The translations under genes and the position numbers were made by a program. Shown piece after piece: positions 775 to 13,022 of a DNA stretch of 14,407 bases. The DNA is from a virus. Its lineage: Duplodnaviria; Heunggongvirae; Uroviricota; Caudoviricetes. Location of the stretch: positions 1-14,407 of IMG/VR virus record IMGVR_UViG_2874915312_000003. One strand, given 5' to 3'. Under the pieces are notes generated by a model. It saw nothing but the letters and a program-made list of their open reading frames with translations. It searched no databases and had not been told where the DNA came from. The first letter of the stretch is position 1; each line of letters starts with the position of its first letter.

Positions 775-2043
775 TCACGATGTGCGAATAAAAAGCCCGG
801 GCATTGCGCCAGAGACATGAGCATCCGGCACCCCGGACAGGGCGCAATATGACCCTGGTAATGAATGCTCTGAACATCCCGTAATGAAAAATTGTGGGGA
901 TGCTATATACGTTCCGGTGGGAGTACTGGGCACTGAAATCCCCACCGGTCCCAGTCGTGAGCCTCTGTATGACTGCCCCCTGACAAGTCTGATGACTTTA
1001 TCACCGTCAGCTTCTCCCTGGTACGCAGCAATAATCAGCCCGCCAATGTCAGGGTCTCCCCATCTGTTGCGGACAGAGCTCGCCACGATTCTGTAAATAA
1101 TATCTTCTGTGGTTATATTTATTTTCACCCAGCCAGTCAGTCTGGATATGGGCCAATAGCAGTAGCGGGTGTGATAAATGGGGCCGTTAATGCCGTAAAA
1201 AGTAAGGGATTTGGCTCTGTACCGCGGTTCTGTTGTCTCAGGGCGTGCATCAGTCCACCGGATGCTGAGCACCCCTTCAAACCGTGTGTCGGGTATGATG
1301 ATGCCGTAGGGGCCAGCAACGGAATATTCACCTGGCAGCGCATTCCTTACCCAGGCCAGGAAATCACTCTTAGTGTCAAAACGGATAACATCTTCAGGCA
1401 GAAAAGCACACCCAAAGCCGAATGCGCCGGGTATCGCCAGACGGCCTTTTGTCCGGTCGTAAATGTCGCTCTGTGCTTCCATCGTGGCCGCACTTTTCAG
1501 CCCCAGATTATCCCGGGACTTCTGTTGTGCCTTTTCGCCTGCTGCTGCGATTTCAGACAGATGGTTAGCCGTTTTCAGGGTGCCGGTCAGCGCAGCATCA
1601 ATGTCATTTTTGGCCTGTTCTGCTGCGCGGGCATAACCTGCGGCTGCCGCCACATCCTGCGCCGTCTGCTGTGCGTTTCCGGCTGCGGCCCCGGCGCTCT
1701 GCTGCGCCTGCGCCACCATTTCCTCAAAGCGTTTGACGACATCCGGTTTCAGGTCGCCCTCATCAGGAGCAATCAGAAAGTCATTCAGCGTGCCGGGCTT
1801 TGAGTCCTCATATACAGCAATGTCGCCAACGTTGTACTCGTTGCGCCAGTCCTGTTTCAGATACACACCATATTTTCCAGTCCGCGCATGGAAACAGTAT
1901 TCACCATCGTTTCCTGTCATCACATCAGCAACAGTGTTCATCACCACTTCCGGGGTGTTTACCCGGGATTTCAGAATAATATGGTATCCGGACATGGGGA
2001 TACCTGCGCCATCAGTCAGCGCACCTGATATCACTACAGACAT
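775..2043 (-). CDS. stf: Side tail fibre protein, lambda Stf-like N-terminal domain
   Basis: 422-aa ORF. N-terminus MSVVISGALTDGAGIP...IAVYEDSKPGTLNDFL follows the lambda Stf N-terminal pattern (MAVKISGVLKDG...ITVYEDSQPGTLNDFL) as remembered. Followed by a tfa-like gene. Confidence 0.7.
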   Translation of the reverse strand: MSVVISGALTDGAGIPMSGYHIILKSRVNTPEVVMNTVADVMTGNDGEYCFHARTGKYGVYLKQDWRNEYNVGDIAVYEDSKPGTLNDFLIAPDEGDLKPDVVKRFEEMVAQAQQSAGAAAGNAQQTAQDVAAAAGYARAAEQAKNDIDAALTGTLKTANHLSEIAAAGEKAQQKSRDNLGLKSAATMEAQSDIYDRTKGRLAIPGAFGFGCAFLPEDVIRFDTKSDFLAWVRNALPGEYSVAGPYGIIIPDTRFEGVLSIRWTDARPETTEPRYRAKSLTFYGINGPIYHTRYCYWPISRLTGWVKINITTEDIIYRIVASSVRNRWGDPDIGGLIIAAYQGEADGDKVIRLVRGQSYRGSRLGPVGISVPSTPTGTYIASPQFFITGCSEHSLPGSYCALSGVPDAHVSGAMPGLFIRTS

Positions 2044-2066
2044 TGTTTTTCTCGCGATAAATTAAA

Positions 2067-2612
2067 TCAGGAAGAACCTTCCGGAGAGGCGGGCCATTCA
2101 ATGGCGTTGTATGAGGATTTATCAGTGATGGTGCTGAAATCCATCGCCTGCAGCGATTTCGCGTAAATACGACAGGCTTTCAGCTTTTCTTTATCTTCGT
2201 CGCTGATTAACCCCAGCAGCAGGTCTTCTTCCCATTCCCCTGTCCGGGCACTGACCTGAGCCAGAAGGGCATCACGCTCATCTTCCGCTTTGAGTCTGTA
2301 GTCAAAGACAAATTCATCATTGCGGTAAAACCAGTAACCCGGCGCGGTAATCCGTCGGTTAGCGGTAATATCAGGAACTTCAATAACACTGGCATTGCGT
2401 GGCTCGATGCCTGTCACATCCTTACCGACCCACACCACGCGACCATCTCCGGTGTAAGCTATTTTTATTGTGTCGCTGGCGAAATTCTTCAGCTCTTCAT
2501 ACCAGTTTTTTCCGTCTTCTGAAAAAAGCCAGGTGACCGAATATCGTTTTGTCATCTGATATTGTTCTGCTGTTTTCGGATTACCCGCAGTAATATTTTT
2601 TAAATGCAACAT
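2067..2612 (-). CDS. tfa: Tail fibre assembly protein Tfa
   Basis: 181-aa ORF. N-terminus MLHLKNITAGNPKTAEQYQMTK...WLFSEDGKNWYEE and C-terminal ...IEWP match E. coli prophage TfaQ/TfaR/lambda Tfa as remembered. ATG lies 2 nt after the stop of the upstream fibre fragment. Confidence 0.75.
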   Translation of the reverse strand: MLHLKNITAGNPKTAEQYQMTKRYSVTWLFSEDGKNWYEELKNFASDTIKIAYTGDGRVVWVGKDVTGIEPRNASVIEVPDITANRRITAPGYWFYRNDEFVFDYRLKAEDERDALLAQVSARTGEWEEDLLLGLISDEDKEKLKACRIYAKSLQAMDFSTITDKSSYNAIEWPASPEGSS

Positions 2613-2614
2613 TG

Positions 2615-3265
2615 TTAAATACTCGCTACGTTATACCAGGTGCCATTAATCAGTTTTTGCAGTGGTCGGTAATACACACCGTCAACGTTATCCGCTGAGT
2701 TACGGCCGGGGCTGTAATACATTTCATGGCCATACCGTACATCCTGTACCCCCTCTGTTCGATATTTATAGCGGGCATCGAAGTTTCCGTAATTTAACGG
2801 AATTACCTGTCCGTTAACAGTGAACACTATGCTGTTATCCGGGTTTCTCTGGCTGAAAAAATGCCAGCCTGAATCATCGCCAAGCTCTGCAACAACAGGC
2901 CTGGATGGATTACCCCACAAATAAAACGCTGCATTTTTCGTGGAGTTGTTGGCGCTGGATAACGTGAATTTTCTGACAGTTCCGGCCTGAATATTCTTAA
3001 AAGCAATAGCCACTCCATTCTGAAAGCGGAATACACGCTGACTATTAGCATAAACATCCAGAATACCGTCTCCATTCTGTTTAAATCCGGTGTCATTATC
3101 ACCAAGAACAATTGAATTCCCCCCCAGGGCGTTCTGAACGCCGATACCCAGCGCACCATTGACCTGCGAACCACCGCCAACAGACACTTTATGCGACATG
3201 GATATTTCACCCGTCCGCAAATTAATGGTGAACGGGCGCAGGGGACCAATATCGCCATTATTCAC
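2615..3265 (-). pseudogene. Tail fibre C-terminal (receptor-binding) domain remnant; 5' portion missing
   Basis: 216-codon ORF with Gly-rich tip-like sequence (HKVSVGGGSQVNGALGIGV...), immediately followed by tfa. Begins with GTG overlapping the holin stop and has no fibre N-terminal domain. First in-frame ATG is at 3199. Confidence 0.45.
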
Positions 3266-3473
3266 CTCTCGCAGCCTTACGCTTATCTTCTCTTATTTTG
3301 AAATACAGATTCGTCAGATAAGTCAGAAGCCCCAGAAGCAGACTTCCCAGCACACCAATCGCAGCCCACTGTGATGGACTGACCTGATCCAACCACTGCA
3401 AAAACCAGTAGCCGGCACTGCCGGCGGCGGTGCCGTAGGCAATGCCCGTTGAAATTTTGTCCATGGATTTCAT
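3258..3473 (-). CDS. Holin, lambdoid prophage EssD/EssQ type (71 aa)
   Basis: MKSMDK...[32 protein letters not shown] closely matches K-12 prophage holin EssD as remembered. SD GGAGGTGA sits upstream of the ATG. Hydrophobic core with a charged C-tail. Confidence 0.7.
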
Positions 3474-3633
3474 AGCCTCACCTCCGCAAATAACGGATGG
3501 CGTAGTTTTACACTGAGAAATGAAAGGGATTTGAAAAGAAAAAAACGCAAAAGCGGGCGAAACGATATATACAGTAAGGAAAGCACTCTATCCAACAAAC
3601 CACCCACAGTTAATCGGAATAAAAGCAGAGTGC

Positions 3634-3706
3634 TTATGAATGATCGCACGCCCGAAGGTTAGTATTTCTGCACAGCAATTTTGCAAAAAAAGGCGATCAT
3701 TCATAA
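3634..3706. repeat. Perfect 14-bp inverted repeat, TTATGAATGATCGC (3634-3647) / GCGATCATTCATAA (3693-3706), 45-nt spacer
   Basis: Read directly from sequence, in the tRNA-holin intergenic region. Confidence 0.8.
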
Positions 3707-3713
3707 CTTAAAC

Positions 3714-3759
3714 GTCTTTCAGTCACTCCGGGATTTCCCATCATCGCAGACTGAAAGAC
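3714..3759. repeat. Perfect 11-bp inverted repeat, GTCTTTCAGTC (3714-3724) / GACTGAAAGAC (3749-3759), 24-nt spacer
   Basis: Read directly from sequence, 7 nt beyond the 3' end of tRNA-Gly on the transcribed strand. Confidence 0.8.
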
Positions 3760-3765
3760 TCTGAC

Positions 3766-3840
<75 letters not shown>

Positions 3841-3843
3841 ATA

Positions 3844-3919
<76 letters not shown>

Positions 3920-3921
3920 GC

Positions 3922-3998
3922 TGGCCCACCACCGAGGACTCGAACCTCGCACCGTCAACTTAGAAGGTTGATGCTCTATCCGGATGAGCTAGTGGTGG
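3922..3998 (-). tRNA. tRNA-Arg (anticodon UCU, reads AGA)
   Basis: Reverse complement CCACCACTAGCTCATCCGGATAGAGCATCAACCTTCTAAGTTGACGGTGCGAGGTTCGAGTCCTCGGTGGTGGGCCA. Perfect 7-bp acceptor stem, anticodon loop CTTCTAA, T-loop TTCGAGT. Confidence 0.75.
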
Positions 3999-3999
3999 T

Positions 4000-4076
4000 T
4001 GGTGGCCCTTGCTGGACTTGAACCAGCGACCTGGCGATTATGAGTCGCTCGCTCTGACCAACTGAGCTAAAGGGCC
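4000..4076 (-). tRNA. tRNA with CAU anticodon, ileX/ileY-like (Ile2/lysidine type more likely than Met)
   Basis: Reverse complement GGCCCTTTAGCTCAGTTGGTCAGAGCGAGCGACTCATAATCGCCAGGTCGCTGGTTCAAGTCCAGCAAGGGCCACCA. Resembles E. coli tRNA-Ile2 as remembered. Ile versus Met identity cannot be settled by eye. Confidence 0.7.
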
Positions 4077-4085
4077 GGAGGCAGA

Positions 4086-4114
4086 ATAATAACCATATGT
4101 CATCACATCTGCAA
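4086..4114 (-). promoter_or_regulatory. Candidate sigma70 promoter for the tRNA cluster (-35 TTGCAG, 17-bp spacer, -10 TATTAT)
   Basis: Minus-strand hexamers at 4114..4109 and 4091..4086. The -10 ends about 10 nt upstream of the tRNA 5' end at 4076. Confidence 0.35.
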
Positions 4115-4160
4115 ACTCATCTGACCACCAGCGCGTTTAACGCCCTGTGCCATTTTTCAG

Positions 4161-4188
4161 GCACAAAAAAACCCGCATAAAGCGGGTT
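4161..4188 (-). terminator. Rho-independent terminator (minus strand)
   Basis: Minus strand reads AACCCGC-TTTAT-GCGGGTT followed by TTTTTTTGTG. Lies about 100 nt downstream of the antirepressor stop. Confidence 0.55.
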
Positions 4189-4284
4189 CTTTCAAGTGTC
4201 CATGTCTGCTATTCGCCTCGCGATACAGCTTTGCGGAGCTTACCGGAATTGAAGCAGTTTATGTGCAAAAATGCAAGAACTTTT

Positions 4285-4794
4285 TTAAAGCTGCATCAAC
4301 CTTTCCACCAGTTTATCTCTGCGAACAACAAACCAACCATTGGCTCTCGCCAGTTCCAGCCATGACTCAAGGGAAATAACAATATCATCATCCCGTAACT
4401 GAATTGTGGAAACAGTGACACCGCCTCTCTGATAACAGAGAACTCGCGTGTCGTAACTTTTCTGGCATGAAACTGGCGTTGACGGATCCTTTTGACTGAA
4501 ATAGCAGTCTTCCAGTTTTTCGAACACATCCCACGCCTGATCGGTTTCGAGCATTTTGGCGTGGCGTGCTGCGCCTCGTTCTGTCCAGAGGATGAGGGAG
4601 CGGGCTTTGGGTGAAACTGGATTTTGTGAGTAGTTTAAAGCGACCCGCAATTCTTTAAGGTCATTACCAACAACTTTGAAAAAGTGTTTCCCTTCAACGA
4701 AGCGTACTTTGTTCTCATGATGATTCTGGCGAATACGCACCGGCTCAGTGCCGTAAAGCTGCGCCAAAAGTTCGGTGGTAATAACAGGAATCTG
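4285..4794 (-). pseudogene. ORF6N-domain phage antirepressor-like protein, 3' part (interrupted by IS600)
   Basis: Translation ...IPVITTELLAQLYGTEPVRIRQNHHENKVRFVEGKHFFKVVGNDLKELR...SPKARSLILWTERGAARHAKMLETDQAWDVFEKLEDCYF matches the ORF6N consensus as remembered. The first 47 codons of track ORF 4285..4932 are read out of IS600 and are artefactual. Confidence 0.65.
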
Positions 4795-4837
4795 TGAGGT
4801 GTACTGGCAATAGCGGACACTACCATTTGTTCTTTTT

Positions 4838-5656
4838 TTAAGCAGCCATCTGATGATATTTTTCCCTGAAGGCTGCCAGGGAGATATTCCCCAGACGAGA
4901 GTGACGACGCTGACGATTGTAGAAAATCTCAATGTATTCCCGTATTACTGAGATGGCTTCATCCCGGTTATTAAAACGATAGTGGCTCAGGCTCTCATTT
5001 TTCAGCGTTCCCCAGAAGCTTTCCATCGGAGCGTTGTCGTAACAGTTACCTTTACGCGACATTGATGTTTTCAGACCAAACTGCTCCTGTATGACCCGGT
5101 AATCGTATGCGCAGTACTGTGAACCTCGATCAGAGTGGTGGATTAGCCCGGCAGGTGGGCGCTGGCTCCTGAGCGCCATAAACAGGGCTTTACCTGTCAG
5201 CTCTTTTGTCATGCGCTCTCCCATGGCGTAGCCGACAATTTCGCACGTATAAACATCTTTGATGCCAGCGAGGTACAACCATCCCTCCTGTGTGGCAACA
5301 TACGTCAGGTCCGCCACCCAGACCTGATTTGGTGCTGTAGGAGCGAACGTCTGGTTCAGCAGATTTGGCGCAACTGGCAGATTGTGGTTCGGGTTCGTAG
5401 TCGCTCTGAACTTGCGTTTCTGCTTACAGCGTAGCCTTAGCTCCTTACAAAGACGTGCCAGTCGGTCACGACCAACGATGATGCCATTCTCTGCCAGCTC
5501 CGTCTGGAGCCGCCGGGTTCCATATGTTTCGCGAGTGCGGATATGTGCCACCTTAATCTCCAGTTTTAGCCGCTCATCACTTTGTTTTCTGTCTGAGGGT
5601 TCATGCTGTACCCAGTTGTAATAACCGCTCCTGGATACACCAAATACCTGACACAT
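4838..5656 (-). CDS. IS600 orfB (DDE transposase catalytic part, expressed as OrfAB by -1 frameshift)
   Basis: 272-aa ORF with IS3-family integrase-core motifs (WVADLTYV...HSDRGSQY...NAPMESFWGTLK). Confidence 0.8.
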   Translation of the reverse strand: MCQVFGVSRSGYYNWVQHEPSDRKQSDERLKLEIKVAHIRTRETYGTRRLQTELAENGIIVGRDRLARLCKELRLRCKQKRKFRATTNPNHNLPVAPNLLNQTFAPTAPNQVWVADLTYVATQEGWLYLAGIKDVYTCEIVGYAMGERMTKELTGKALFMALRSQRPPAGLIHHSDRGSQYCAYDYRVIQEQFGLKTSMSRKGNCYDNAPMESFWGTLKNESLSHYRFNNRDEAISVIREYIEIFYNRQRRHSRLGNISLAAFREKYHQMAA

Positions 5657-5691
5657 CGCTTCAATGGGAAATTGTTGTCGCCATTGTTCGA

Positions 5692-5994
5692 TTAACGCGT
5701 ATTTTTCAGCGACTCCTGTGCAAAATACGCTGTTGCTTTTTTTAATATATCTCGCTCAAGGCGAGCTTCATTTAACGCCTTACGCAGTTGCAGAATTTCA
5801 GATTCCAGTTCAGCCACCGTGCGGGAACCAGGAGTACCGAGCCCTTTTCTGGCGGCGGTAACCCATTGTCCTAAAGTGCCTTCAGGAAGAGATAATCGGG
5901 AAGCGCCTTCACTGATCGAAAGTTGATTTTCAAGAACCGTTCTGACAGCTTCGGCTTTGAACTCTTTAGAGTAACGTTGGGTTTTTCTGCTCAT
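5692..5994 (-). CDS. IS600 orfA (helix-turn-helix / leucine-zipper transposase N-terminal part)
   Basis: 100-aa ORF starting 64 nt from the IS end, with a coiled-coil ELESEILQLRKALNEARLERDILKKA typical of IS3-family OrfA. Confidence 0.8.
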   Translation of the reverse strand: MSRKTQRYSKEFKAEAVRTVLENQLSISEGASRLSLPEGTLGQWVTAARKGLGTPGSRTVAELESEILQLRKALNEARLERDILKKATAYFAQESLKNTR

Positions 5995-6058
5995 TATTAG
6001 CTCCTTCTGATGCCATTCTATTTCAGGAAGGAGTGTCCGTTAAACTCAGGCTACCTCA

Positions 6059-6109
6059 CTGGTTATGGGTGATCGGGGAGAGAGTTTCAACAGAGATTTG
6101 AGTGGTCAT
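6059..6109 (-). pseudogene. ORF6N antirepressor-like gene, 5' part (MTTQISVETLSPITHNQ)
   Basis: Frame continues exactly across the IS600 insertion once the IS and one CTG copy are removed (...THNQ|IPVITT...). The ATG at 6109 has GGAG 9 nt upstream. Confidence 0.5.
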
Positions 6110-6272
6110 AACGATAACTCCGTACATTTGGAAATTATCGCCACCGACGACGCCAATCGAACTGGTGGCGAACTGTGCAGGGTTGGCGTAACCGGGTACG
6201 GAAACCGGCGAGCCTTTCGGCTCCCCCACACAGCCCGCCATAAATCGCGAATGTGACTGTGCAAACGATATG

Positions 6273-6294
6273 AAAAAAGACGCGGGCGCGTCTC
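6273..6294 (-). terminator. Candidate tR'-like intrinsic terminator
   Basis: Minus strand reads GACGC-GCCC-GCGTC followed by TTTTTT, about 55-75 nt downstream of the candidate late promoter. Confidence 0.4.
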
Positions 6295-6355
6295 ATATCG
6301 CTCCGTAAACATCCGGGACGCCAATCCCGACGCCAGATTTTGCTGGCGCGTGAGG

Positions 6356-6385
6356 AATATAGCCCCGGATAACAGATTGAGTCAA
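6356..6385 (-). promoter_or_regulatory. Candidate late promoter pR' (-35 TTGACT, 18-bp spacer, -10 TATATT)
   Basis: The -35 hexamer at 6385..6380 overlaps the Q stop codon (TGA at 6384..6382). The -10 is at 6361..6356. Lambdoid pR' sits immediately after Q. Confidence 0.5.
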
Positions 6386-6936
6386 CAAACGGTTTTTAGA
6401 TCCCCGGAAGAGAATGCATCACGCATCGGTAGATAGAGCATATATTCAGCAAGATTTAGCCATACATCTACCCGACTGCAGCACGTCCGGAAACACCACT
6501 CAGGGTGTGCGTCATTCAGCAATTCAGCCATTTTACGCTTAGTCATCCCCCGCCCTTCATACCGTTGCCGGAGGACACTAATCAATCCAGGATGCTCTGC
6601 CAGCACCTCACTTATGACTCTATCAATACATAACGCCTCTGCATCAGTACAATGCGCCAGCCAGGTCTTTTGCTTGCCATTGATCATCTCTCGCAAAAAC
6701 GCTTCCAGCTCAGGTTTCTCTATTCCCGCTTTTTTCATCCTGCGCAGGGCTTCATTGACGGCTGTTTTCGTCAATTTTTTGGATGCCAGCAACTGGTTAA
6801 ACATATTTCCCGCCTTACCGCCGCCAATATACGACCAGCGCCCCCACATGCGCAGTTTTCCCTGAATCCAGACACTTTCCAGCGTGGTGAGACGAAGGTG
6901 TTCCCCGCTTTTGCCTGTATTTGTTGGGTAAATCAT
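6382..6936 (-). CDS. Late-gene antitermination protein Q (Phage_antitermQ-like)
   Basis: Start taken at the internal ATG 6936 (MIYPTNTGKSGEH...), which has SD AAGGAAGG and overlaps the upstream stop as ATGA. Motif LRMWGRWSYIGGG resembles the W-G-x-W segment of Q21/QuuD-type proteins as remembered. Candidate pR'/tR' lie immediately downstream. Confidence 0.6.
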   Translation of the reverse strand: MIYPTNTGKSGEHLRLTTLESVWIQGKLRMWGRWSYIGGGKAGNMFNQLLASKKLTKTAVNEALRRMKKAGIEKPELEAFLREMINGKQKTWLAHCTDAEALCIDRVISEVLAEHPGLISVLRQRYEGRGMTKRKMAELLNDAHPEWCFRTCCSRVDVWLNLAEYMLYLPMRDAFSSGDLKTVC

Positions 6937-7822: not shown

Positions 7823-7955
7823 CGTAGTTCTCCGCTGGCGCAGTAGAATGGGTGTTCAGCCCGTTATGTAGTATACCAGAATTAATGCCAATACTAACAG
7901 GGTAATGCTGCCAACTTACTGATTTAGTGTATGATGGTGATTTTAAGGTGCTTGC

Positions 7956-8231
7956 GTGGCTTCCATTTCCATCAGATGTCCTTCCTGCTCCGCTACTGAA
8001 GGCGTGGTGCGTAACGGCAAAAGCACTGCCGGGCATCAGCGCTATCTCTGCTCTCATTGCCGTAAAACATGGCAACTACAGTTCACTTACACCGCCTCTC
8101 AGCCCGGTACGCACCAGAAAATCATTGATATGGCCATGAATGGCGTCGGATGTCGCGCCAGTGCACGCATTATGGGCGTTGGCCTCAACACGGTTTTACG
8201 TCACTTAAAAAACTCAGGCCGCAGTCGGTAA
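7956..8231 (+). CDS. insA: IS1 InsA
   Basis: [40 protein letters not shown]..., 91 aa. Confidence 0.9.
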
Positions 8232-8653
8232 CCTCGCGCATACAACCGGGCAGTGATGTGATTGTCTGCGCTGAAATGGACGAACATTGGGGCTACGTCG
8301 GTGCTAAATCACGTCAGCGCTGGCTGTTTTACGCGTATGACAGGATACGGAGGACGGTTGTGGCGCACGTCTTCGGTGAACGCACTCTGGCCACACTGGA
8401 GCGTCTTCTGAGCCTGCTGTCGGCCTTTGAGGTCGTGGTATGGATGACGGATGGCTGGCCGCTGTATGAATCACGCCTGAAGGGAAAGCTGCACGTTATC
8501 AGCAAGCGTTACACTCAGCGCATTGAGCGACATAATCTGAATCTGAGACAACATCTGGCAAGGCTGGGACGGAAGTCACTGTCGTTCTCAAAATCGGTGG
8601 AGCTGCATGACAAGGTCATCGGGCATTATCTGAACATAAAACACTATCAGTAA
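8150..8653 (+). CDS. insB: IS1 insB reading frame (expressed as InsAB' fusion by -1 frameshift at the A6C motif near 8207)
   Basis: 167-codon ORF overlapping the insA 3' end. TTAAAAAACTC slippery motif present. Confidence 0.85.
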
Positions 8654-8752
8654 GTTGGAGTCATTACCTACTAACAGGATGTTCTGACTCGCAATTCGGT
8701 AATGCTGCCAACTTACTGATTTAGTGTATGATGGTGATTTTAAGGTGCTTGC

Positions 8753-9028
8753 GTGGCTTCCATTTCCATCAGATGTCCTTCCTGCTCCGCTACTGAAGGC
8801 GTGGTGCGTAACGGCAAAAGCACTGCCGGACATCAGCGCTATCTCTGCTCTCATTGCCGTAAAACATGGCAACTACAGTTCACTTACACCGCCTCTCAGC
8901 CCGGTACGCACCAGAAAATCATTGATATGGCCATGAATGGCGTCGGATGTCGCGCCAGTGCACGCATTATGGGCGTTGGCCTCAACAGGGTTTTACGTCA
9001 CTTAAAAAACTCAGGCCGCAGTCGGTAA
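8753..9028 (+). CDS. insA: IS1 InsA (copy 2; T->R substitution relative to copies 1 and 3)
   Basis: GLNRVLRHL versus GLNTVLRHL in the other copies. Confidence 0.9.
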
Positions 9029-9450
9029 CCTCGCGCATACAACCGGGCAGTGATGTGATTGTCTGCGCTGAAATGGACGAACATTGGGGCTACGTCGGTG
9101 CTAAATCACGTCAGCGCTGGCTGTTTTACGCGTATGACAGGATACGGAGGACGGTTGTGGCGCACGTCTTCGGTGAACGCACTCTGGCCACACTGGAGCG
9201 TCTTCTGAGCCTGCTGTCGGCCTTTGAGGTCGTGGTATGGATGACGGATGGCTGTCCGCTGTATGAATCACGCCTGAAGGGAAAGCTGCACGTTATCAGC
9301 AAGCGTTACACTCAGCGCATTGAGCGACATAATCTGAATCTGAGACAACATCTGGCAAGGCTGGGACGGAAGTCACTGTCGTTCTCAAAATCGGTGGAGC
9401 TGCATGACAAGGTCATCGGGCATTATCTGAACATAAAACACTATCAGTAA
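8947..9450 (+). CDS. insB: IS1 insB frame (copy 2; W->C substitution, DGCPLYES versus DGWPLYES)
   Basis: Direct comparison of the three copies within the window. Confidence 0.85.
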
Positions 9451-9698
9451 GTTGGAGTCATTACCCGCAATTCATCCAGCAGTTTATCATTTCCCATAAT
9501 GTCACTTACCCTCATCGGTAAAAAAATTGCCTTTCGACCATTACGATACATTATTGATTTTGGGGTTTCAGGGAAGTAATCCATTTCGACTATAACTGAC
9601 AGGTCATCACGACGTATGACTGCGTATTTGCTACTAAATAGTTTCTTTATTTTTTCCACGATGCCTCCAGGTTTATAAGTACAAACGGTTATATCCAC
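9444..9698 (-). CDS. Rem-like small prophage protein; last 5 native codons replaced by 6 IS1-derived codons
   Basis: GTG start at 9698. Removing both IS1 copies and one copy of each duplication restores an 83-codon ORF ending ...LLDELRVRTSC, with its stop inside the copy-1 target duplication. Position (upstream of Q and nin proteins, downstream of hokD) mirrors rem in K-12 Qin. Identity to Rem is from memory. Confidence 0.5.
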
Positions 9699-9934: not shown

Positions 9935-10090
9935 TTACTCCTCAGGTTCGTAAGCTGTGAAGACAGCGACCTCCGTCTGGCCGGTTCGGATTCGTACCTC
10001 GCAGAGGTCTTTCCTCGTTACCAGTGCCGTCACTATGACGGTTAAACAGATGACGATCAGGGCGATTAACATCGCCTTTTGCTGCTTCAT
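9935..10090 (-). CDS. hokD: Hok/Gef-family type I toxin, HokD (RelF)-like
   Basis: 51-aa MKQQKAMLIALIVICLTVIVTALVTRKDLCEVRIRTGQTEVAVFTAYEPEE matches K-12 HokD as remembered. SD AAGGAG is 8 nt upstream. Track ORF 9935..10147 adds an in-frame 19-codon upstream extension (MSHKCRLASYVPKGKEKQA). Confidence 0.8.
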   Translation of the reverse strand: MKQQKAMLIALIVICLTVIVTALVTRKDLCEVRIRTGQTEVAVFTAYEPEE

Positions 10091-10431
10091 AGCCTGCTTC
10101 TCCTTGCCTTTCGGCACGTAAGAGGCTAACCTACATTTGTGAGACATAGATTGGGCCTCAGATTAATGTTAAGCGTCTTGCAGGACGCGTAATGTTAACT
10201 GGGGCTTTTCTCTGTCTGCCTTACAGTGGCATGCCCGAGGCAGACAGCCTCAAGCACCCGCAGCAATCTTACCGATACCGATAAGAAAACGCTATTTTTT
10301 ATTGCCAGCACCTTCTATCCAGGCTAATTTATCTGCGTCAGAACGGCGCAATGCGCTCGCCTGAGATACGTTTACTTGCCATGGTAACAACAGGTAACGG
10401 CAATTGCTGTTTCTGTTTTGTTTCCTTCAAA

Positions 10432-11933: not shown

Positions 11934-12189
11934 ATCAGCTTTCCTTATACGGATTAATTTTATTGTGCAGTGTGTTGAATGACGCCCATACCACGTCGTT
12001 ATACAATTCAATAACTGGCTCAATTATTTTTCCGATTATCCAGACAAAAATTAGCGGGGATATCGGTGTCATCAACACGATAAACAGAATGAGAAACAGG
12101 AATTCTGTTGTTCTACTCTTTCGCGGATATTTTTGGTAATGCTGCCAACTTACTGATTTAGTGTATGATGGTGATTTTAAGGTGCTTGC

Positions 12190-12465
12190 GTGGCTTCCAT
12201 TTCCATCAGATGTCCTTCCTGCTCCGCTACTGAAGGCGTGGTGCGTAACGGCAAAAGCACTGCCGGACATCAGCGCTATCTCTGCTCTCATTGCCGTAAA
12301 ACATGGCAACTACAGTTCACTTACACCGCCTCTCAGCCCGGTACGCACCAGAAAATCATTGATATGGCCATGAATGGCGTCGGATGTCGCGCCAGTGCAC
12401 GCATTATGGGCGTTGGCCTCAACACGGTTTTACGTCACTTAAAAAACTCAGGCCGCAGTCGGTAA
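12190..12465 (+). CDS. insA: IS1 InsA (copy 3)
   Basis: Protein identical to copy 1 InsA. Confidence 0.9.
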
Positions 12466-12887
12466 CCTCGCGCATACAACCGGGCAGTGATGTGATTGTC
12501 TGCGCTGAAATGGACGAACATTGGGGCTACGTCGGTGCTAAATCACGTCAGCGCTGGCTGTTTTACGCGTATGACAGGATACGGAGGACGGTTGTGGCGC
12601 ACGTCTTCGGTGAACGCACTCTGGCCACACTGGAGCGTCTTCTGAGCCTGCTGTCGGCCTTTGAGGTCGTGGTATGGATGACGGATGGCTGGCCGCTGTA
12701 TGAATCACGCCTGAAGGGAAAGCTGCACGTTATCAGCAAGCGTTACACTCAGCGCATTGAGCGACATAATCTGAATCTGAGACAACATCTGGCAAGGCTG
12801 GGACGGAAGTCACTGTCGTTCTCAAAATCGGTGGAGCTGCATGACAAGGTCATCGGGCATTATCTGAACATAAAACACTATCAGTAA
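12384..12887 (+). CDS. insB: IS1 insB frame (copy 3)
   Basis: Protein identical to copy 1. Confidence 0.85.
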
Positions 12888-13022
12888 GTTGGAGTCATTA
12901 CCGATATTTTTTTCTAAATAATGTAACCATTCATTACCGCCCTTTCGGGCGGTCTCCTGATGATTTGAGGGTGCAGAAATCCCTCCGGTTAGAGATTAAA
13001 TTTTTAACAGTGCTAAATTTAA

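What the first reader, a model, noticed from the sequence alone, without database searches (positions are those of the whole stretch)
6273..6390. Late regulatory module: promoter -35 overlapping the Q stop codon, then a short-leader terminator
TTGACT-18-TATATT reads on the minus strand with the -35 overlapping the Q TGA, followed about 55 nt later by a GC hairpin plus T6. This is the lambdoid pR'-qut-tR' architecture. Unusually, an ORF6N antirepressor gene is the first gene after it.
Basis: partly seen in the sequence, partly recalled or inferred. Interest (0 to 1): 0.45.

Follow-up and report, generated by a model that had tools for sequence, protein, structure and literature searches.

The report
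IsrK decoy RNA, not late promoter
The promoter and short terminated transcript just after the Q-like gene are real, but they are the known IsrK small RNA that heads a portable antisense-RNA (C4) cassette controlling an antirepressor gene; the late promoter that belongs to this Q protein most likely lies about 2 kb further on.

Summary
On the minus strand TTGACT(6385-6380)-18-TATATT(6361-6356) has the Q-like gene's TGA inside the -35. A GC hairpin plus T6 (6294-6273) begins 55 nt after the predicted start. The pR'-qut-tR' reading is most likely wrong. The 77-nt transcript is IsrK (Rfam 75.6 bits). C4 antisense RNA follows at 6161-6245, then an ORF6N antirepressor gene split by an IS600-like element. 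This is the Gifsy-1 isrK-orf45-anrP locus and matches P1 immI part for part. IsrK carries copies of both C4 target sites, and all three sets of sites co-vary. The same unit follows unrelated genes (DUF1133 Q, Q82-type Q, NinE, VRR-NUC), so it is not a Q-specific qut. A different promoter-leader-terminator unit (4276-4165) always accompanies DUF1133 Q genes. It lies at the Q stop in about 53 loci and just after the cassette in about 31. Its spacer co-varies with the Q residues that align with Q21's DNA-reading helix. That unit is the probable late promoter. The finding is a known element. The placement of the cassette between Q and its late promoter is a modest new point.

The parts
6382..6936 (-). 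Q-like gene, 184 aa. It belongs to the DUF1133 family and is a distant relative of Q21/Q933W antiterminators.
   Evidence: Pfam PF06576 scores 358.8 bits and PF06530 scores 27.5 bits against a cutoff of 26. All 120 listed homologues carry both Pfam hits. A profile of 20 homologues hits the Q21 structures 6p18/6jnx at E = 1e-5.
6380..6385 (-). -35 hexamer TTGACT of the isrK promoter. It contains the TGA stop codon of the Q-like gene.
   Evidence: TTGAC sits at the same spacing in all four upstream contexts examined.
6356..6361 (-). -10 hexamer TATATT of the isrK promoter.
   Evidence: It is invariant in 17 module variants. It lies inside the Rfam c4-a1b1 match at 6310-6362.
6273..6349 (-). IsrK small RNA, 77 nt. 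It has hairpin 1, hairpin 2, a linker and a terminator. It corresponds to the a1-b1 unit of P1 immI.
   Evidence: Rfam RF01394 scores 75.6 bits over positions 1-77 of 77. RF03163 (c4-a1b1) scores 52.2 bits.
6318..6325 (-). a1 site AUUGGCGU in the loop of IsrK hairpin 2. It is a copy of target a2 and is complementary to a' of C4.
   Evidence: All 17 sequences are paired at this site, 4 of 8 pairs show compensatory changes, and 0 of 500 shuffles reach this. It corresponds to P1 a1.
6301..6307 (-). b1 site UACGGAG in the IsrK linker. It is a copy of target b2 and is complementary to the b' loop of C4.
   Evidence: Cognate complementarity with the C4 loop is 6-8 nt in 4 of 6 loop classes, against 3-5 nt for non-cognate pairs. 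In the other two classes pairing needs a G-U wobble.
6273..6294 (-). Intrinsic terminator of IsrK, a GC stem followed by T6.
   Evidence: At least 6 stem variants in related loci all fold and end in U6-7.
6161..6245 (-). C4-type antisense RNA (STnc1160 / 'orf45' region of Gifsy-1). The b' loop UCCGUAC lies at 6196-6202 and the a' segment ACGCCAA at 6183-6189.
   Evidence: Rfam RF01695 scores 77.6 bits. The fold z-score is -4.6. Covariation is shown.
6150..6157 (-). a2 target AUUGGCGU in the leader of the antirepressor gene.
   Evidence: It is 100% paired with a' in 17 sequences, with 4 of 8 pairs compensatory.
6118..6125 (-). b2 target GUACGGAG. It overlaps the Shine-Dalgarno GGAG of the antirepressor gene, whose ATG is at 6109-6107.
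   Evidence: Cognate complementarity with the C4 loop is 6-9 nt against 3-5 nt for pairs of unrelated loop classes. The two closely similar GGUUUC loop classes cross-match at 6-7 nt.
6059..6109 (-). 5' fragment (17 codons) of the ORF6N antirepressor gene.
4795..6058 (-). IS600-like IS3-family element, 1264 bp, inserted in the antirepressor gene. The 3-bp target duplication CAG lies at 6061-6059 and 4794-4792.
   Evidence: The sequence is. Intact loci read ...CATAACCAGATTCCTG... across the insertion point.
4285..4794 (-). 3' part of the ORF6N antirepressor gene.
   Evidence: Pfam ORF6N scores 68.2 bits. The intact homologue in pPE4 is 193 aa.
4165..4276 (-). Candidate cognate late unit of the DUF1133 Q. 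The -35 TTGCAT lies at 4276-4271. The spacer carries a class-specific TGCACA at 4267-4262. TGcTTCAAT lies at 4256-4248. The conserved box AAGCTCCGCAAAGCTGTATCG lies at 4241-4221. The terminator hairpin plus T7 lies at 4192-4165.
   Evidence: The unit is homologous to DNA directly at the Q stop in about 53 loci that lack the cassette, and it lies just after the cassette in 31 loci. The box is conserved with Q homologues down to 61% identity. The spacer co-varies with the putative recognition helix of Q. The leader fold z-score is -4.0.
3766..4076 (-). tRNA cluster (Met, Arg, Thr, Gly) downstream of the candidate late promoter.
   Evidence: ARAGORN and Rfam.
3258..3473 (-). Phage 21-type holin S gene, the first lysis gene of the late region.
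   Evidence: Pfam PF04971 scores 118.5 bits.

Best explanation
The segment 6385-6273 (minus strand) is the promoter, body and terminator of IsrK. IsrK is the first unit of a portable cassette of the P1 immI type, ordered P(isrK), a1, b1, terminator, C4 RNA, a2, b2/SD, antirepressor. RNA polymerase starts at about 6349. Most transcripts stop at the hairpin and T6, giving the 77-nt IsrK. Some read through and produce C4 (6245-6161) and the antirepressor mRNA. C4 pairs through two short segments (a' and b') with a2 and with b2. Because b2 covers the Shine-Dalgarno sequence, this pairing blocks antirepressor translation. IsrK carries copies of both targets (a1, b1). It can therefore hold C4 in cis or titrate it in trans, which releases antirepressor translation. 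The antirepressor then inactivates the prophage repressor and early genes, including Q, are expressed. The unit does not depend on Q. The Q-responsive late promoter, leader and terminator are most likely the separate unit at 4276-4165, upstream of the tRNA and lysis genes. In this window the cassette cannot make antirepressor, because an IS600-like element splits the gene. The two RNA genes are intact. Shown here: the identity of the RNAs, the covariation of the sites, the portability of the cassette and the linkage of the other unit to Q. Taken from experiments on the Gifsy-1 orthologue: promoter activity, partial read-through, activation of antirepressor translation by IsrK in trans, and antirepressor-driven antQ expression. 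Inferred: the decoy mechanism stated in C4 terms, and the assignment of 4276-4165 as the qut site.
For: Rfam finds IsrK at 75.6 bits, c4-a1b1 at 52.2 bits and C4 at 77.6 bits, in the P1 order. In P1 immI the deposited annotation has the same layout, and the IsrK model also hits P1 at 35 bits, terminator included. The a1/a' and a'/a2 pairs are 100% paired in 17 variants, 4 of 8 pairs are compensatory, and 0 of 500 shuffles reach this; slid controls give 14-45% paired. The b' loop is complementary to b2 over 6-9 nt in cognate pairs, against 3-5 nt for pairs of unrelated loop classes, across 6 loop classes; two closely similar classes cross-match at 6-7 nt. Similarity to Gifsy-1 starts at the -35. 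Gifsy-1 AntQ is PF06323 (Q82 family), whereas the window Q is DUF1133/PF06530. In Stx2a phages the unit follows NinE, about 3 kb upstream of Q. In APSE-7 it follows a VRR-NUC gene. The module is present in 282 phage records and in 742 of 5426 complete E. coli genomes. Among DUF1133 Q loci, 35 have the cassette at the Q stop, and 31 of these show the 4276-4165-type unit 826-1036 nt downstream. Another 53 have that unit directly at the Q stop and no cassette. Q homologues of 50-67% identity all have an equivalent promoter, conserved box and terminator at their stop codon. The one exception is a Pantoea locus where hok/sok is inserted and the unit follows it. The residues of Q aligned to Q21 A124/R127/R128 fall into three classes, and each class goes with its own spacer in that unit. 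RTCCSR goes with GCACAT in 15 loci. ATCRNR goes with AGCCAT in at least 16 loci. STCEKR goes with ACGyAT in 50 loci. There are no exceptions. Cassette specificity classes are shuffled across the first two Q classes, and the isrK promoter is identical in both. In Gifsy-1, deleting P(isrK) does not prevent phage production when the antirepressor is supplied (PMC4825925). The Gifsy-1 isrJ unit after anrP lies directly at the stop of Q82-type genes in other phages.
Against: The geometry is exactly that of a canonical pR': the -35 overlaps the Q stop and a short terminated leader follows. The same geometry is seen for the other unit in cassette-free relatives. A -10-like CAAAAT lies at +8 to +13 and could cause a sigma-dependent pause, although it is also the conserved loop of hairpin 1, present in P1 too. 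In Gifsy-1 an isrK-anrP transcriptional fusion rose 8-fold when IsrK was over-produced in a strain that has antQ. Q action at this terminator could in principle explain that. No DUF1133 protein has been tested for antitermination. The proposed late promoter has a weak -10 (TGcTTCAAT), the consensus scan missed it, and its start site is unmapped. The Q-spacer covariation could partly reflect linkage rather than selection.
Confidence: 0.8

Rival explanations
1. The 6385 promoter is the phage late promoter pR'. The initial transcribed region holds the qut/pause signals. The 6294-6273 hairpin is tR'. The upstream Q loads here and carries RNA polymerase through the antirepressor gene, the tRNAs and the lysis genes.
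For: The promoter lies directly after a Q-like gene with the -35 over the stop codon, and a short terminated leader follows. A -10-like CAAAAT lies at +8 to +13. There is an 8-fold rise of a transcriptional fusion in antQ+ Salmonella when IsrK is over-produced.
Against: An identical promoter and leader follow two unrelated Q families, and also non-Q genes. Two DUF1133 Q classes with different putative recognition helices share the same isrK promoter but have different spacers in the 4276-type unit. DUF1133 Q genes without the cassette have a different conserved unit at their stop codon. A second promoter-terminator unit lies between the antirepressor gene and the late genes. A P(isrK) deletion in Gifsy-1 still yields phage when the antirepressor is supplied. 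The 8-fold effect can be explained by relief of translational repression and polarity, as is known for P1 c4 (from my own knowledge of that system).
Confidence: 0.06
2. This is a dual-use reading. The unit is IsrK of the C4 cassette, but Q also acts on RNA polymerase that starts there. Q expression would then raise read-through into C4 and the antirepressor gene, and close a positive feedback loop.
For: The evidence is the same positional and -10-like evidence as above. The cassette has been placed exactly at the Q stop in two unrelated Q systems.
Against: No Q-class-specific sequence is seen in the isrK promoter. The same unit works in contexts without an adjacent Q. The exact placement can also be explained by insertion of accessory genes at the Q/pR' junction, as with hok/sok in Pantoea.
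Confidence: 0.06
3. This is an inert-relic reading. In this heavily IS-ridden cryptic prophage the promoter and RNAs are no longer expressed or have no target, so the feature has no present function.
For: The antirepressor gene is split by an IS600-like element. The window holds three IS1 copies, and tail-fibre genes follow almost directly after the holin, so the late region looks shortened. A sister strain has lost 2914-4794 altogether.
Against: The promoter, IsrK, C4, a2 and b2 are 100% identical to those of loci with an intact antirepressor gene (L032, L036). Nothing in the sequence would stop transcription. C4 and IsrK could still act in trans on cassettes of the same specificity in other prophages.
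Confidence: 0.06

Closest known systems
Gifsy-1 isrK-orf45(STnc1160)-anrP-isrJ locus of Salmonella (Hershko-Shalev et al. 2016, PMC4825925; Padalon-Brauch et al. 2008, PMC2330248)
   Same: The order is the same: Q-like gene, promoter with its -35 at the Q stop, 77-nt IsrK with terminator, C4-like RNA, ORF6N-type antirepressor, then a second short terminated transcript before the tRNA and lysis genes. DNA similarity runs from the -35 through C4 at about 80%. The a-site class is the same (GGCGU).
   Different: The upstream Q belongs to an unrelated family (PF06323 in Gifsy-1, DUF1133/PF06530 here). The b-site class differs. The small ORF that overlaps C4 is 45 aa and stop-start coupled in Gifsy-1, whereas here it runs in frame into the antirepressor gene. 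The antirepressor gene here is split by an IS. The unit after the antirepressor gene is isrJ in Gifsy-1 and a different sequence here.
immI region of phages P1 and P7: P1c4 (P51b) promoter, a1, b1, c4, a2, b2, icd, ant
   Same: The correspondence holds part by part. The promoter, hairpin 1, a1 in the loop of hairpin 2, b1 in the linker, a terminator-like hairpin with a T run, C4, a2, and b2 over the ribosome-binding site are all present. Specificity lies in short a and b sites that change together, as between P1 and P7 (the P1/P7 difference is from my own knowledge).
   Different: P1 has the icd gene between b2 and ant, and b2 covers the icd ribosome-binding site. Here b2 covers the antirepressor's own Shine-Dalgarno sequence. 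The P1 antirepressor (Ant1/2) belongs to another protein family. The P1 promoters carry a C1 operator (Oc4), and none is evident here. The host phage here is lambdoid, not P1-like.
Lambdoid pR'-qut-tR' units (lambda 6S RNA; phage 21, 82 and 933W; the StxS RNA of Stx phages, PMC7547250)
   Same: A constitutive sigma70 promoter lies directly after Q and gives a short terminated transcript.
   Different: The sequence is not tied to one Q family. The first downstream gene is an antirepressor, not a late gene. A separate unit at 4276-4165 shows the Q linkage expected of a qut site. That unit, not the finding, is what resembles pR'-tR'.
P4 CI RNA with seqA/seqC (the analogy drawn by the authors of the Gifsy-1 paper)
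   Same: A processed antisense RNA is flanked upstream and downstream by copies of its target sequence within one transcript.
   Different: P4 CI causes transcription termination of replication genes. No sequence or Rfam match to P4 was examined here.

Membership tests
Lambdoid pR'-qut-tR' late regulatory unit | A sigma70 promoter immediately downstream of the Q gene. | tested here: met
   TTGACT-18-TATATT, with the Q stop codon inside the -35.
Lambdoid pR'-qut-tR' late regulatory unit | An intrinsic terminator a short distance downstream that gives a short leader RNA. | tested here: met
   A hairpin and T6 at 6294-6273, giving a 77-nt transcript.
Lambdoid pR'-qut-tR' late regulatory unit | Promoter and leader sequence specific to, and inherited with, the cognate Q family (qut/QBE specificity). 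| tested here: not met
   The same promoter and leader follow DUF1133 Q, Q82-type Q, NinE and VRR-NUC genes. DUF1133 Q genes without the cassette carry a different unit. The Q helix classes co-vary with that other unit, not with this one.
Lambdoid pR'-qut-tR' late regulatory unit | A -10-like pause-inducing element in the initial transcribed region. | tested here: inconclusive
   CAAAAT lies at +8 to +13 (4 of 6 matches, with A2 and T6). It is also the invariant loop of hairpin 1 of the c4-a1b1 motif, and P1 has it too.
Lambdoid pR'-qut-tR' late regulatory unit | Late (lysis or morphogenesis) genes are the first genes after the terminator. | tested here: not met
   C4 RNA and an antirepressor gene follow. 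Another promoter-terminator unit lies before the tRNA and holin genes.
Lambdoid pR'-qut-tR' late regulatory unit | Q-dependent read-through of the terminator. | not testable with these tools
   This needs reporter or in vitro transcription assays.
IsrK sRNA (Rfam RF01394) | A covariance-model score above the curated threshold over the full length. | tested here: met
   75.6 bits against 50, model positions 1-77 of 77.
IsrK sRNA (Rfam RF01394) | The same neighbours as the type locus: a Q-like gene upstream, and a C4-like RNA and antirepressor downstream. | tested here: met
IsrK sRNA (Rfam RF01394) | A 77-nt RNA is actually made and activates antirepressor translation in trans. | not testable with these tools
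   This was shown only for Gifsy-1 (PMC4825925, PMC2330248).
P1/P7 immI-type C4 antisense module | A C4 RNA gene. | tested here: met
   RF01695 scores 77.6 bits against 45. The fold z-score is -4.6.
P1/P7 immI-type C4 antisense module | An a1-b1 unit upstream of C4, in the same transcript. | tested here: met
   RF03163 scores 52.2 bits against 46.7. The layout is the same as in annotated P1.
P1/P7 immI-type C4 antisense module | The a' and b' segments of C4 are complementary to a1/b1 and a2/b2, with changes that compensate across relatives. | tested here: met
   The a sites are 100% paired with 4 of 8 pairs compensatory, and 0 of 500 shuffles reach this. The b' loop pairs with b2 over 6-9 nt in cognate pairs in all six loop classes, against 3-5 nt for unrelated classes, although two similar classes cross-match at 6-7 nt. 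With b1 it pairs over 6-8 nt in four classes and needs a G-U wobble in the other two.
P1/P7 immI-type C4 antisense module | The b2 site overlaps the ribosome-binding site of the regulated reading frame. | tested here: met
   GUACGGAG at 6125-6118 includes the GGAG that lies 8 nt before the ATG at 6109.
P1/P7 immI-type C4 antisense module | An icd-like leader gene translationally coupled to ant. | tested here: not met
   There is no icd. The small ORF that starts inside C4 varies from 16 to 45 aa, or is fused to the antirepressor gene, across 17 variants.
P1/P7 immI-type C4 antisense module | An antirepressor gene downstream. | tested here: met
   An ORF6N-domain protein (68 bits), of a different family from P1 Ant, and interrupted here by an IS.
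P1/P7 immI-type C4 antisense module | C4 is released from the precursor by RNase P. | not testable with these tools
   This feature is known for P1 (from my own knowledge). No data are available here.
Q antiterminator, Q21/Q933W superfamily (upstream protein) | Sequence membership in the family. | tested here: met
   PF06530 scores 27.5 bits against a cutoff of 26, which is marginal. A profile of 20 homologues hits the Q21 chains at E = 1e-5, collinear and including the S-K and T-C-x-x-R motifs. hhalign against a single Q933W-type sequence is weak (probability 12.5%, E = 0.0023).
Q antiterminator, Q21/Q933W superfamily (upstream protein) | A Q21-like fold. | tested here: inconclusive
   The AlphaFold model from a shallow alignment has mean pLDDT 53 and pTM 0.36. 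Foldseek found no PDB match at E <= 0.001.
Q antiterminator, Q21/Q933W superfamily (upstream protein) | The gene lies between nin-type genes and a promoter-terminator unit that precedes the lysis genes. | tested here: met
   DUF1367 and YbcO genes lie upstream. The conserved unit and then lysis genes lie downstream in the window and in relatives.
Q antiterminator, Q21/Q933W superfamily (upstream protein) | Antitermination activity. | not testable with these tools
   No paper in the library mentions DUF1133.

The most novel reading that the evidence does not exclude
The isrK promoter is also a Q-loading site. The CAAAAT at +8 to +13 would pause sigma70-RNA polymerase, and the adjacent Q would carry it through the IsrK terminator into C4 and the antirepressor gene. 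That would make an antirepressor-Q-antirepressor positive feedback loop. It would also explain why the cassette has been captured exactly at the Q stop codon in two unrelated Q systems.
Probability: 0.06. Interest if true: 0.55.

Novelty: already known. Interest (0 to 1): 0.25.

Why it matters
A promoter with a short terminated transcript directly after a Q gene is easily annotated as pR'/tR'. This case shows that such an annotation can be wrong. About 14% of complete E. coli genomes (742 of 5426) and 282 phage records carry this IsrK-C4 cassette. RefSeq lists no feature under it in the sampled hits. Recognising the cassette explains the 'odd' antirepressor gene after Q. It also restates IsrK in simple terms, as a decoy that carries both C4 target sites. 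Finally, it points to a specific and testable qut site for the uncharacterised DUF1133 branch of Q-like proteins: 4276-4165, with a class-specific hexamer in the spacer. None of this changes the picture of lambdoid regulation. It is a correction and a refinement.

Tried and rejected
- **Whole-RNA duplex energies.** IsrK against C4 and C4 against the leader were no better than shuffles, because all the sequences are GC-rich. I replaced this test with column-wise and class-wise covariation.
- **Column-based covariation for the b sites and the terminator.** This was not usable, because the alignment register shifts between classes. I used per-sequence complementarity and folding instead.
- **Rfam at a permissive threshold on 4060-4330.** It found no family for the candidate late leader.
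- **NCBIfam.** It has no model for the Q-like or antirepressor proteins.
- **Structure prediction of the Q-like protein.** A 30-sequence shallow alignment gave a low-confidence model (pLDDT 53), and the Foldseek matches were meaningless. I therefore make no claim about the fold.
- **hhalign of the DUF1133 profile against a single Q933W-type sequence.** The result was weak.
- **The Q21 QBE hexamer TGAGCA.** I looked for it in the candidate late promoter. It occurs in some distant relatives, but inside the Q coding tail and about 50 bp apart, so I did not interpret it.
- **A common -10 hexamer register across all DUF1133 late units.** I could not fix one. The start site of the 4276 promoter remains inferred.
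- **A LexA box or repressor operator at the isrK promoter.** I considered this and saw none by eye.
Full report
**Observation.**
- On the minus strand, TTGACT (6385-6380), an 18-nt spacer and TATATT (6361-6356) form one of the two best promoter-like sites in the window, at 10 of 12 matches.
- The TGA stop (6384-6382) of a 184-aa ORF (6936-6382) lies inside the -35.
- A start at G6349 gives a transcript whose GC hairpin (6294-6277) begins 55 nt later and ends in T6 (6278-6273).
- The description is therefore accurate.
- Promoter-like hexamer pairs are no more frequent in the window than in shuffles (16 against 16.1). The case for function rests on what follows.

**Identity of the transcript.**
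- Rfam matches 6349-6273 end to end to IsrK (RF01394): 75.6 bits, gathering score 50, E = 1.7e-16.
- It matches 6362-6310 to c4-a1b1 (RF03163, 52.2 bits).
- It matches 6245-6161 to C4 antisense RNA (RF01695, 77.6 bits).
- After C4 comes an ORF6N-domain antirepressor gene with its ATG at 6109.
- A 1264-bp IS600-like element (6058-4795) splits that gene. The 3-bp target duplication is CAG.

**The studied orthologue.**
- This is the arrangement described in Salmonella prophage Gifsy-1: antQ, isrK, orf45 (the stable RNA STnc1160), anrP, isrJ (PMC4825925).
- In Gifsy-1 the isrK promoter is required for transcription of anrP (280 against 3 Miller units).
- Part of the transcripts read through the IsrK terminator.
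- IsrK supplied in trans raises AnrP translation more than 100-fold.
- AnrP in turn raises antQ mRNA.
- The 77-nt IsrK RNA was mapped earlier (PMC2330248).
- BLAST similarity between the window and Gifsy-1 starts at the -35 and covers IsrK and C4 only.

**Correspondence with P1 immI.**
- The deposited P1 annotation places promoter P1c4, sites a1 and b1, C4, a2, b2 (over the icd ribosome-binding site), icd and ant in that order.
- Rfam finds c4-a1b1 and C4 in P1. The IsrK model also scores 35 bits there, terminator-like hairpin and T run included.
- In P1 terms the window has:
  - a1 AUUGGCGU at 6325-6318, in the loop of IsrK hairpin 2;
  - b1 UACGGAG at 6307-6301, in the linker;
  - b' UCCGUAC at 6202-6196, in the loop of C4 hairpin 2;
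  - a' ACGCCAA at 6189-6183;
  - a2 AUUGGCGU at 6157-6150;
  - b2 GUACGGAG at 6125-6118, which includes the GGAG before the antirepressor ATG.

**Covariation of the sites.**
- I compared 17 distinct module variants from prophages and phages.
- The a1/a' and a'/a2 pairings are 100% standard pairs. Four of 8 pairs change on both sides, giving five specificity classes: GGCGU, AGCAC, AGGAAC, GGAAC and GGUCU.
- No shuffle out of 500 reaches this. Sliding the partner by 1-3 columns drops pairing to 14-45%.
- The b' loop exists in six classes. Each is complementary over 6-9 nt to its own b2. With its own b1 it pairs over 6-8 nt in four classes and needs a G-U wobble in two.
- Pairs of unrelated loop classes reach 3-5 nt. 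The two closely similar GGUUUC loop classes cross-match at 6-7 nt.
- The IsrK terminator stem occurs in at least six sequence versions, and all of them fold.
- The small ORF that starts inside C4 ('orf45') has no conserved frame or length: 16-45 aa, or fused to the antirepressor gene as in this window. Conservation in that stretch is therefore at the RNA level.

**The unit is portable.**

| Context | Gene just upstream of the unit |
|---|---|
| Window and relatives | DUF1133 Q |
| Gifsy-1 | Q of family PF06323 (Q82 type) |
| Stx2a phages | NinE, about 3 kb upstream of the PF06530 Q and its tRNAs |
| APSE-7 | VRR-NUC gene, with a BRO-N gene after the cassette |
| Some prophages | Two copies, one in the nin region and one at the Q stop |

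- In every context a TTGAC -35 is present, and similarity begins at it or about 13 nt after it.
- The module is found in 282 phage records and in 742 of 5426 complete E. coli genomes. No feature is listed under it in the sampled RefSeq hits.
- A qut site should be specific to its Q, and this unit is not.

**Where the Q-linked unit is.**
- In phage vB_EcoS-666R9 a DUF1133 Q has no cassette. The DNA at its stop codon is homologous to window DNA just after the antirepressor stop (4276-4165).
- I surveyed 107 loci that encode relatives of this Q. Among relatives of 77% identity or more only two layouts occur:
  - 35 loci have the cassette at the Q stop. In 31 of them this second unit lies 826-1036 nt further on. 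In the remaining four the region is deleted or the contig ends.
  - 53 loci have the second unit directly at the Q stop and no cassette.
- Homologues of 50-67% identity all carry a promoter-like TTGCAA-18-T(G/A)AATT over their stop codon. A conserved box and a terminator follow 50-70 nt later.
- In three of these homologues (L015, L016, L027) the box is the same ATGCTTCGCAAAGCTGTA as in the window.
- The single exception is a Pantoea locus in which a hok/sok module sits between Q and the unit.

**Covariation of the second unit with Q.**
- The family profile aligns with the phage 21 Q structure (E = 1e-5). In that alignment the window residues R-T-C-C-S-R match Q21 A124-T125-C126-R127-R128-E129.
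- Q21 residues A124 and R127 are reported to read the bases of its QBE, which lies between the -35 and the -10 (PMC6606751).
- Three classes of this segment exist among close relatives, and each goes with its own spacer in the second unit.

| Q segment | Spacer hexamer in the second unit | Loci | Position of the unit |
|---|---|---|---|
| RTCCSR | GCACAT | 15 | after the cassette |
| ATCRNR | AGCCAT | at least 16 | after the cassette |
| STCEKR | ACG(C/T)AT | 50 | at the Q stop |

- I found no exception.
- The first two classes share an identical isrK promoter, and the same cassette specificity classes are found in both.
- The element that stays matched to Q is therefore the distal promoter.
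- Linkage could contribute to this pattern, but the intervening cassette has clearly been exchanged.

**The same pattern in Gifsy-1.**
- The isrJ unit that follows anrP is found, promoter included, directly at the stop of PF06323 Q genes in phages CobraSix and PhiR47_2. In CobraSix Rfam scores isrJ at 62.6 bits.
- The cassette has thus been placed between Q and its own short-leader unit in two unrelated Q systems.
- Gifsy-1 with the isrK promoter deleted still produces phage when the antirepressor is supplied. This argues against that promoter being the late promoter.

**The upstream protein.**
- It is Pfam DUF1133 (358 bits), with a marginal PF06530 hit (27.5 against 26).
- All 120 listed homologues carry both hits, and a few sources call them antiterminator or late gene regulator.
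- The match to Q21 is by sequence profile only. A structure model was too poor to use.
- I regard it as a probable, untested, distant member of the Q21/933W superfamily.
- The three Q families listed by Yin et al. (10.1101/651190) do not include DUF1133. No paper in the library mentions it.

**Mechanism.**
- The 6385 promoter makes IsrK, and some transcripts read through to C4 and the antirepressor message.
- C4 pairs with a2 and with b2/SD and blocks antirepressor translation.
- IsrK carries a1 and b1 and competes for C4, in cis or in trans, so translation is released.
- The antirepressor then lifts prophage repression and early genes, including Q, are expressed.
- Q then acts at the 4276-4165 unit to open the tRNA and lysis region.
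- Three steps are taken from the Gifsy-1 work: promoter activity, read-through, and activation by IsrK.
- The C4-decoy wording and the qut assignment are my inference from covariation and synteny.
- In this window the antirepressor gene is broken, so only the RNA part of the circuit can still work.

**Caveats.**
- The geometry is that of a classical pR'.
- A -10-like CAAAAT lies at +8 to +13.
- An 8-fold transcriptional effect in antQ+ cells could hide a Q contribution.
- The proposed late promoter has a weak -10 (TGcTTCAAT) and an unmapped start.

**Context and verdict.**
- The window matches a Shigella flexneri-type chromosome (99% to CP182556). It holds a decayed lambdoid prophage with IS600-like and IS1 insertions.
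- The feature is a further copy of a known element, so novelty is low.
- The useful outcomes are the corrected annotation and a testable qut prediction for DUF1133 Q proteins.

Noticed in passing
window 4165-4276 (-): A promoter-leader-terminator unit: TTGCAT-17-TGcTTCAAT, the box AAGCTCCGCAAAGCTGTATCG, and a hairpin with T7. It always accompanies DUF1133 Q genes and its spacer co-varies with them. It is probably the real pR'/qut/tR' of this prophage. No Rfam family matches it, and the terminator scan missed it because the stem absorbs the T run.
   Followed up: yes
L002 4841-4947 (Gifsy-1); L112 1522-1610 (CobraSix); L113 1519-1547 (PhiR47_2): The Salmonella sRNA IsrJ, described as a HilA-dependent invasion-related sRNA, occupies the position of the promoter-proximal terminated transcript directly after Q82-family Q genes in other phages. 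It may therefore be the pR'-tR' leader of Gifsy-1, much as StxS is for Stx phages. I found no paper that says this.
   Followed up: partly
L018 5053-5730 (Pantoea osteomyelitidis): A hok/sok toxin-antitoxin module (sok at 128.6 bits) lies between a DUF1133 Q stop and its conserved late unit. The Q/pR' junction seems to be a recurrent insertion point for accessory cassettes.
   Followed up: partly
window 4795-6058: A 1264-bp IS600-like IS3-family element lies inside the antirepressor gene, with the target duplication CAG. A sister strain (L005/L006) has lost window 2914-4794 next to this IS.
   Followed up: yes
window about 7901-8668, 8698-9465, 12135-12902 (+): There are three IS1 copies (InsB ORFs at 8150, 8947 and 12384). 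The first two are almost tandem, about 29 bp apart. Only the third copy's ends were checked by BLAST. The others are inferred from ORF offsets.
   Followed up: partly
window 10085-10259 (-): A sok antitoxin RNA (Rfam 118.1 bits) with a likely hok ORF (9935-10147, -). A terminator-like hairpin lies at 9867-9848.
   Followed up: no
window 6109-6241 (-) and alignment A4: The small ORF that starts at the AUG inside the C4 5' end ('orf45' in Gifsy-1) has no conserved frame. It is 16-45 aa in other variants and is fused in frame to the antirepressor gene in this window. A weak Pfam 'Phage_ASH' hit on its translation is probably an RNA-level artefact.
   Followed up: partly
L045 1783-2127 and 5045-5389; L058: Some prophages carry two IsrK-C4 cassettes, one in the nin region and one at the Q stop. 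They share the same a-site class but differ in b-loop class.
   Followed up: no
window 3766-4076 (-), 3258-3473 (-), 775-2612 (-): A four-tRNA cluster (Met, Arg, Thr, Gly) and then a phage 21-type holin are followed almost directly by tail-fibre assembly and tail-fibre genes. Most of the late region appears to have been deleted.
   Followed up: no
L012-L029, last 30 nt of the Q genes: In distant DUF1133 homologues the -35 (TTGCAA, codons Leu-Gln) and the -10 (TGAATT or TAAATT, containing the stop codon) of the presumed late promoter lie inside the Q coding tail. That tail is therefore under both protein and promoter constraint.
   Followed up: no
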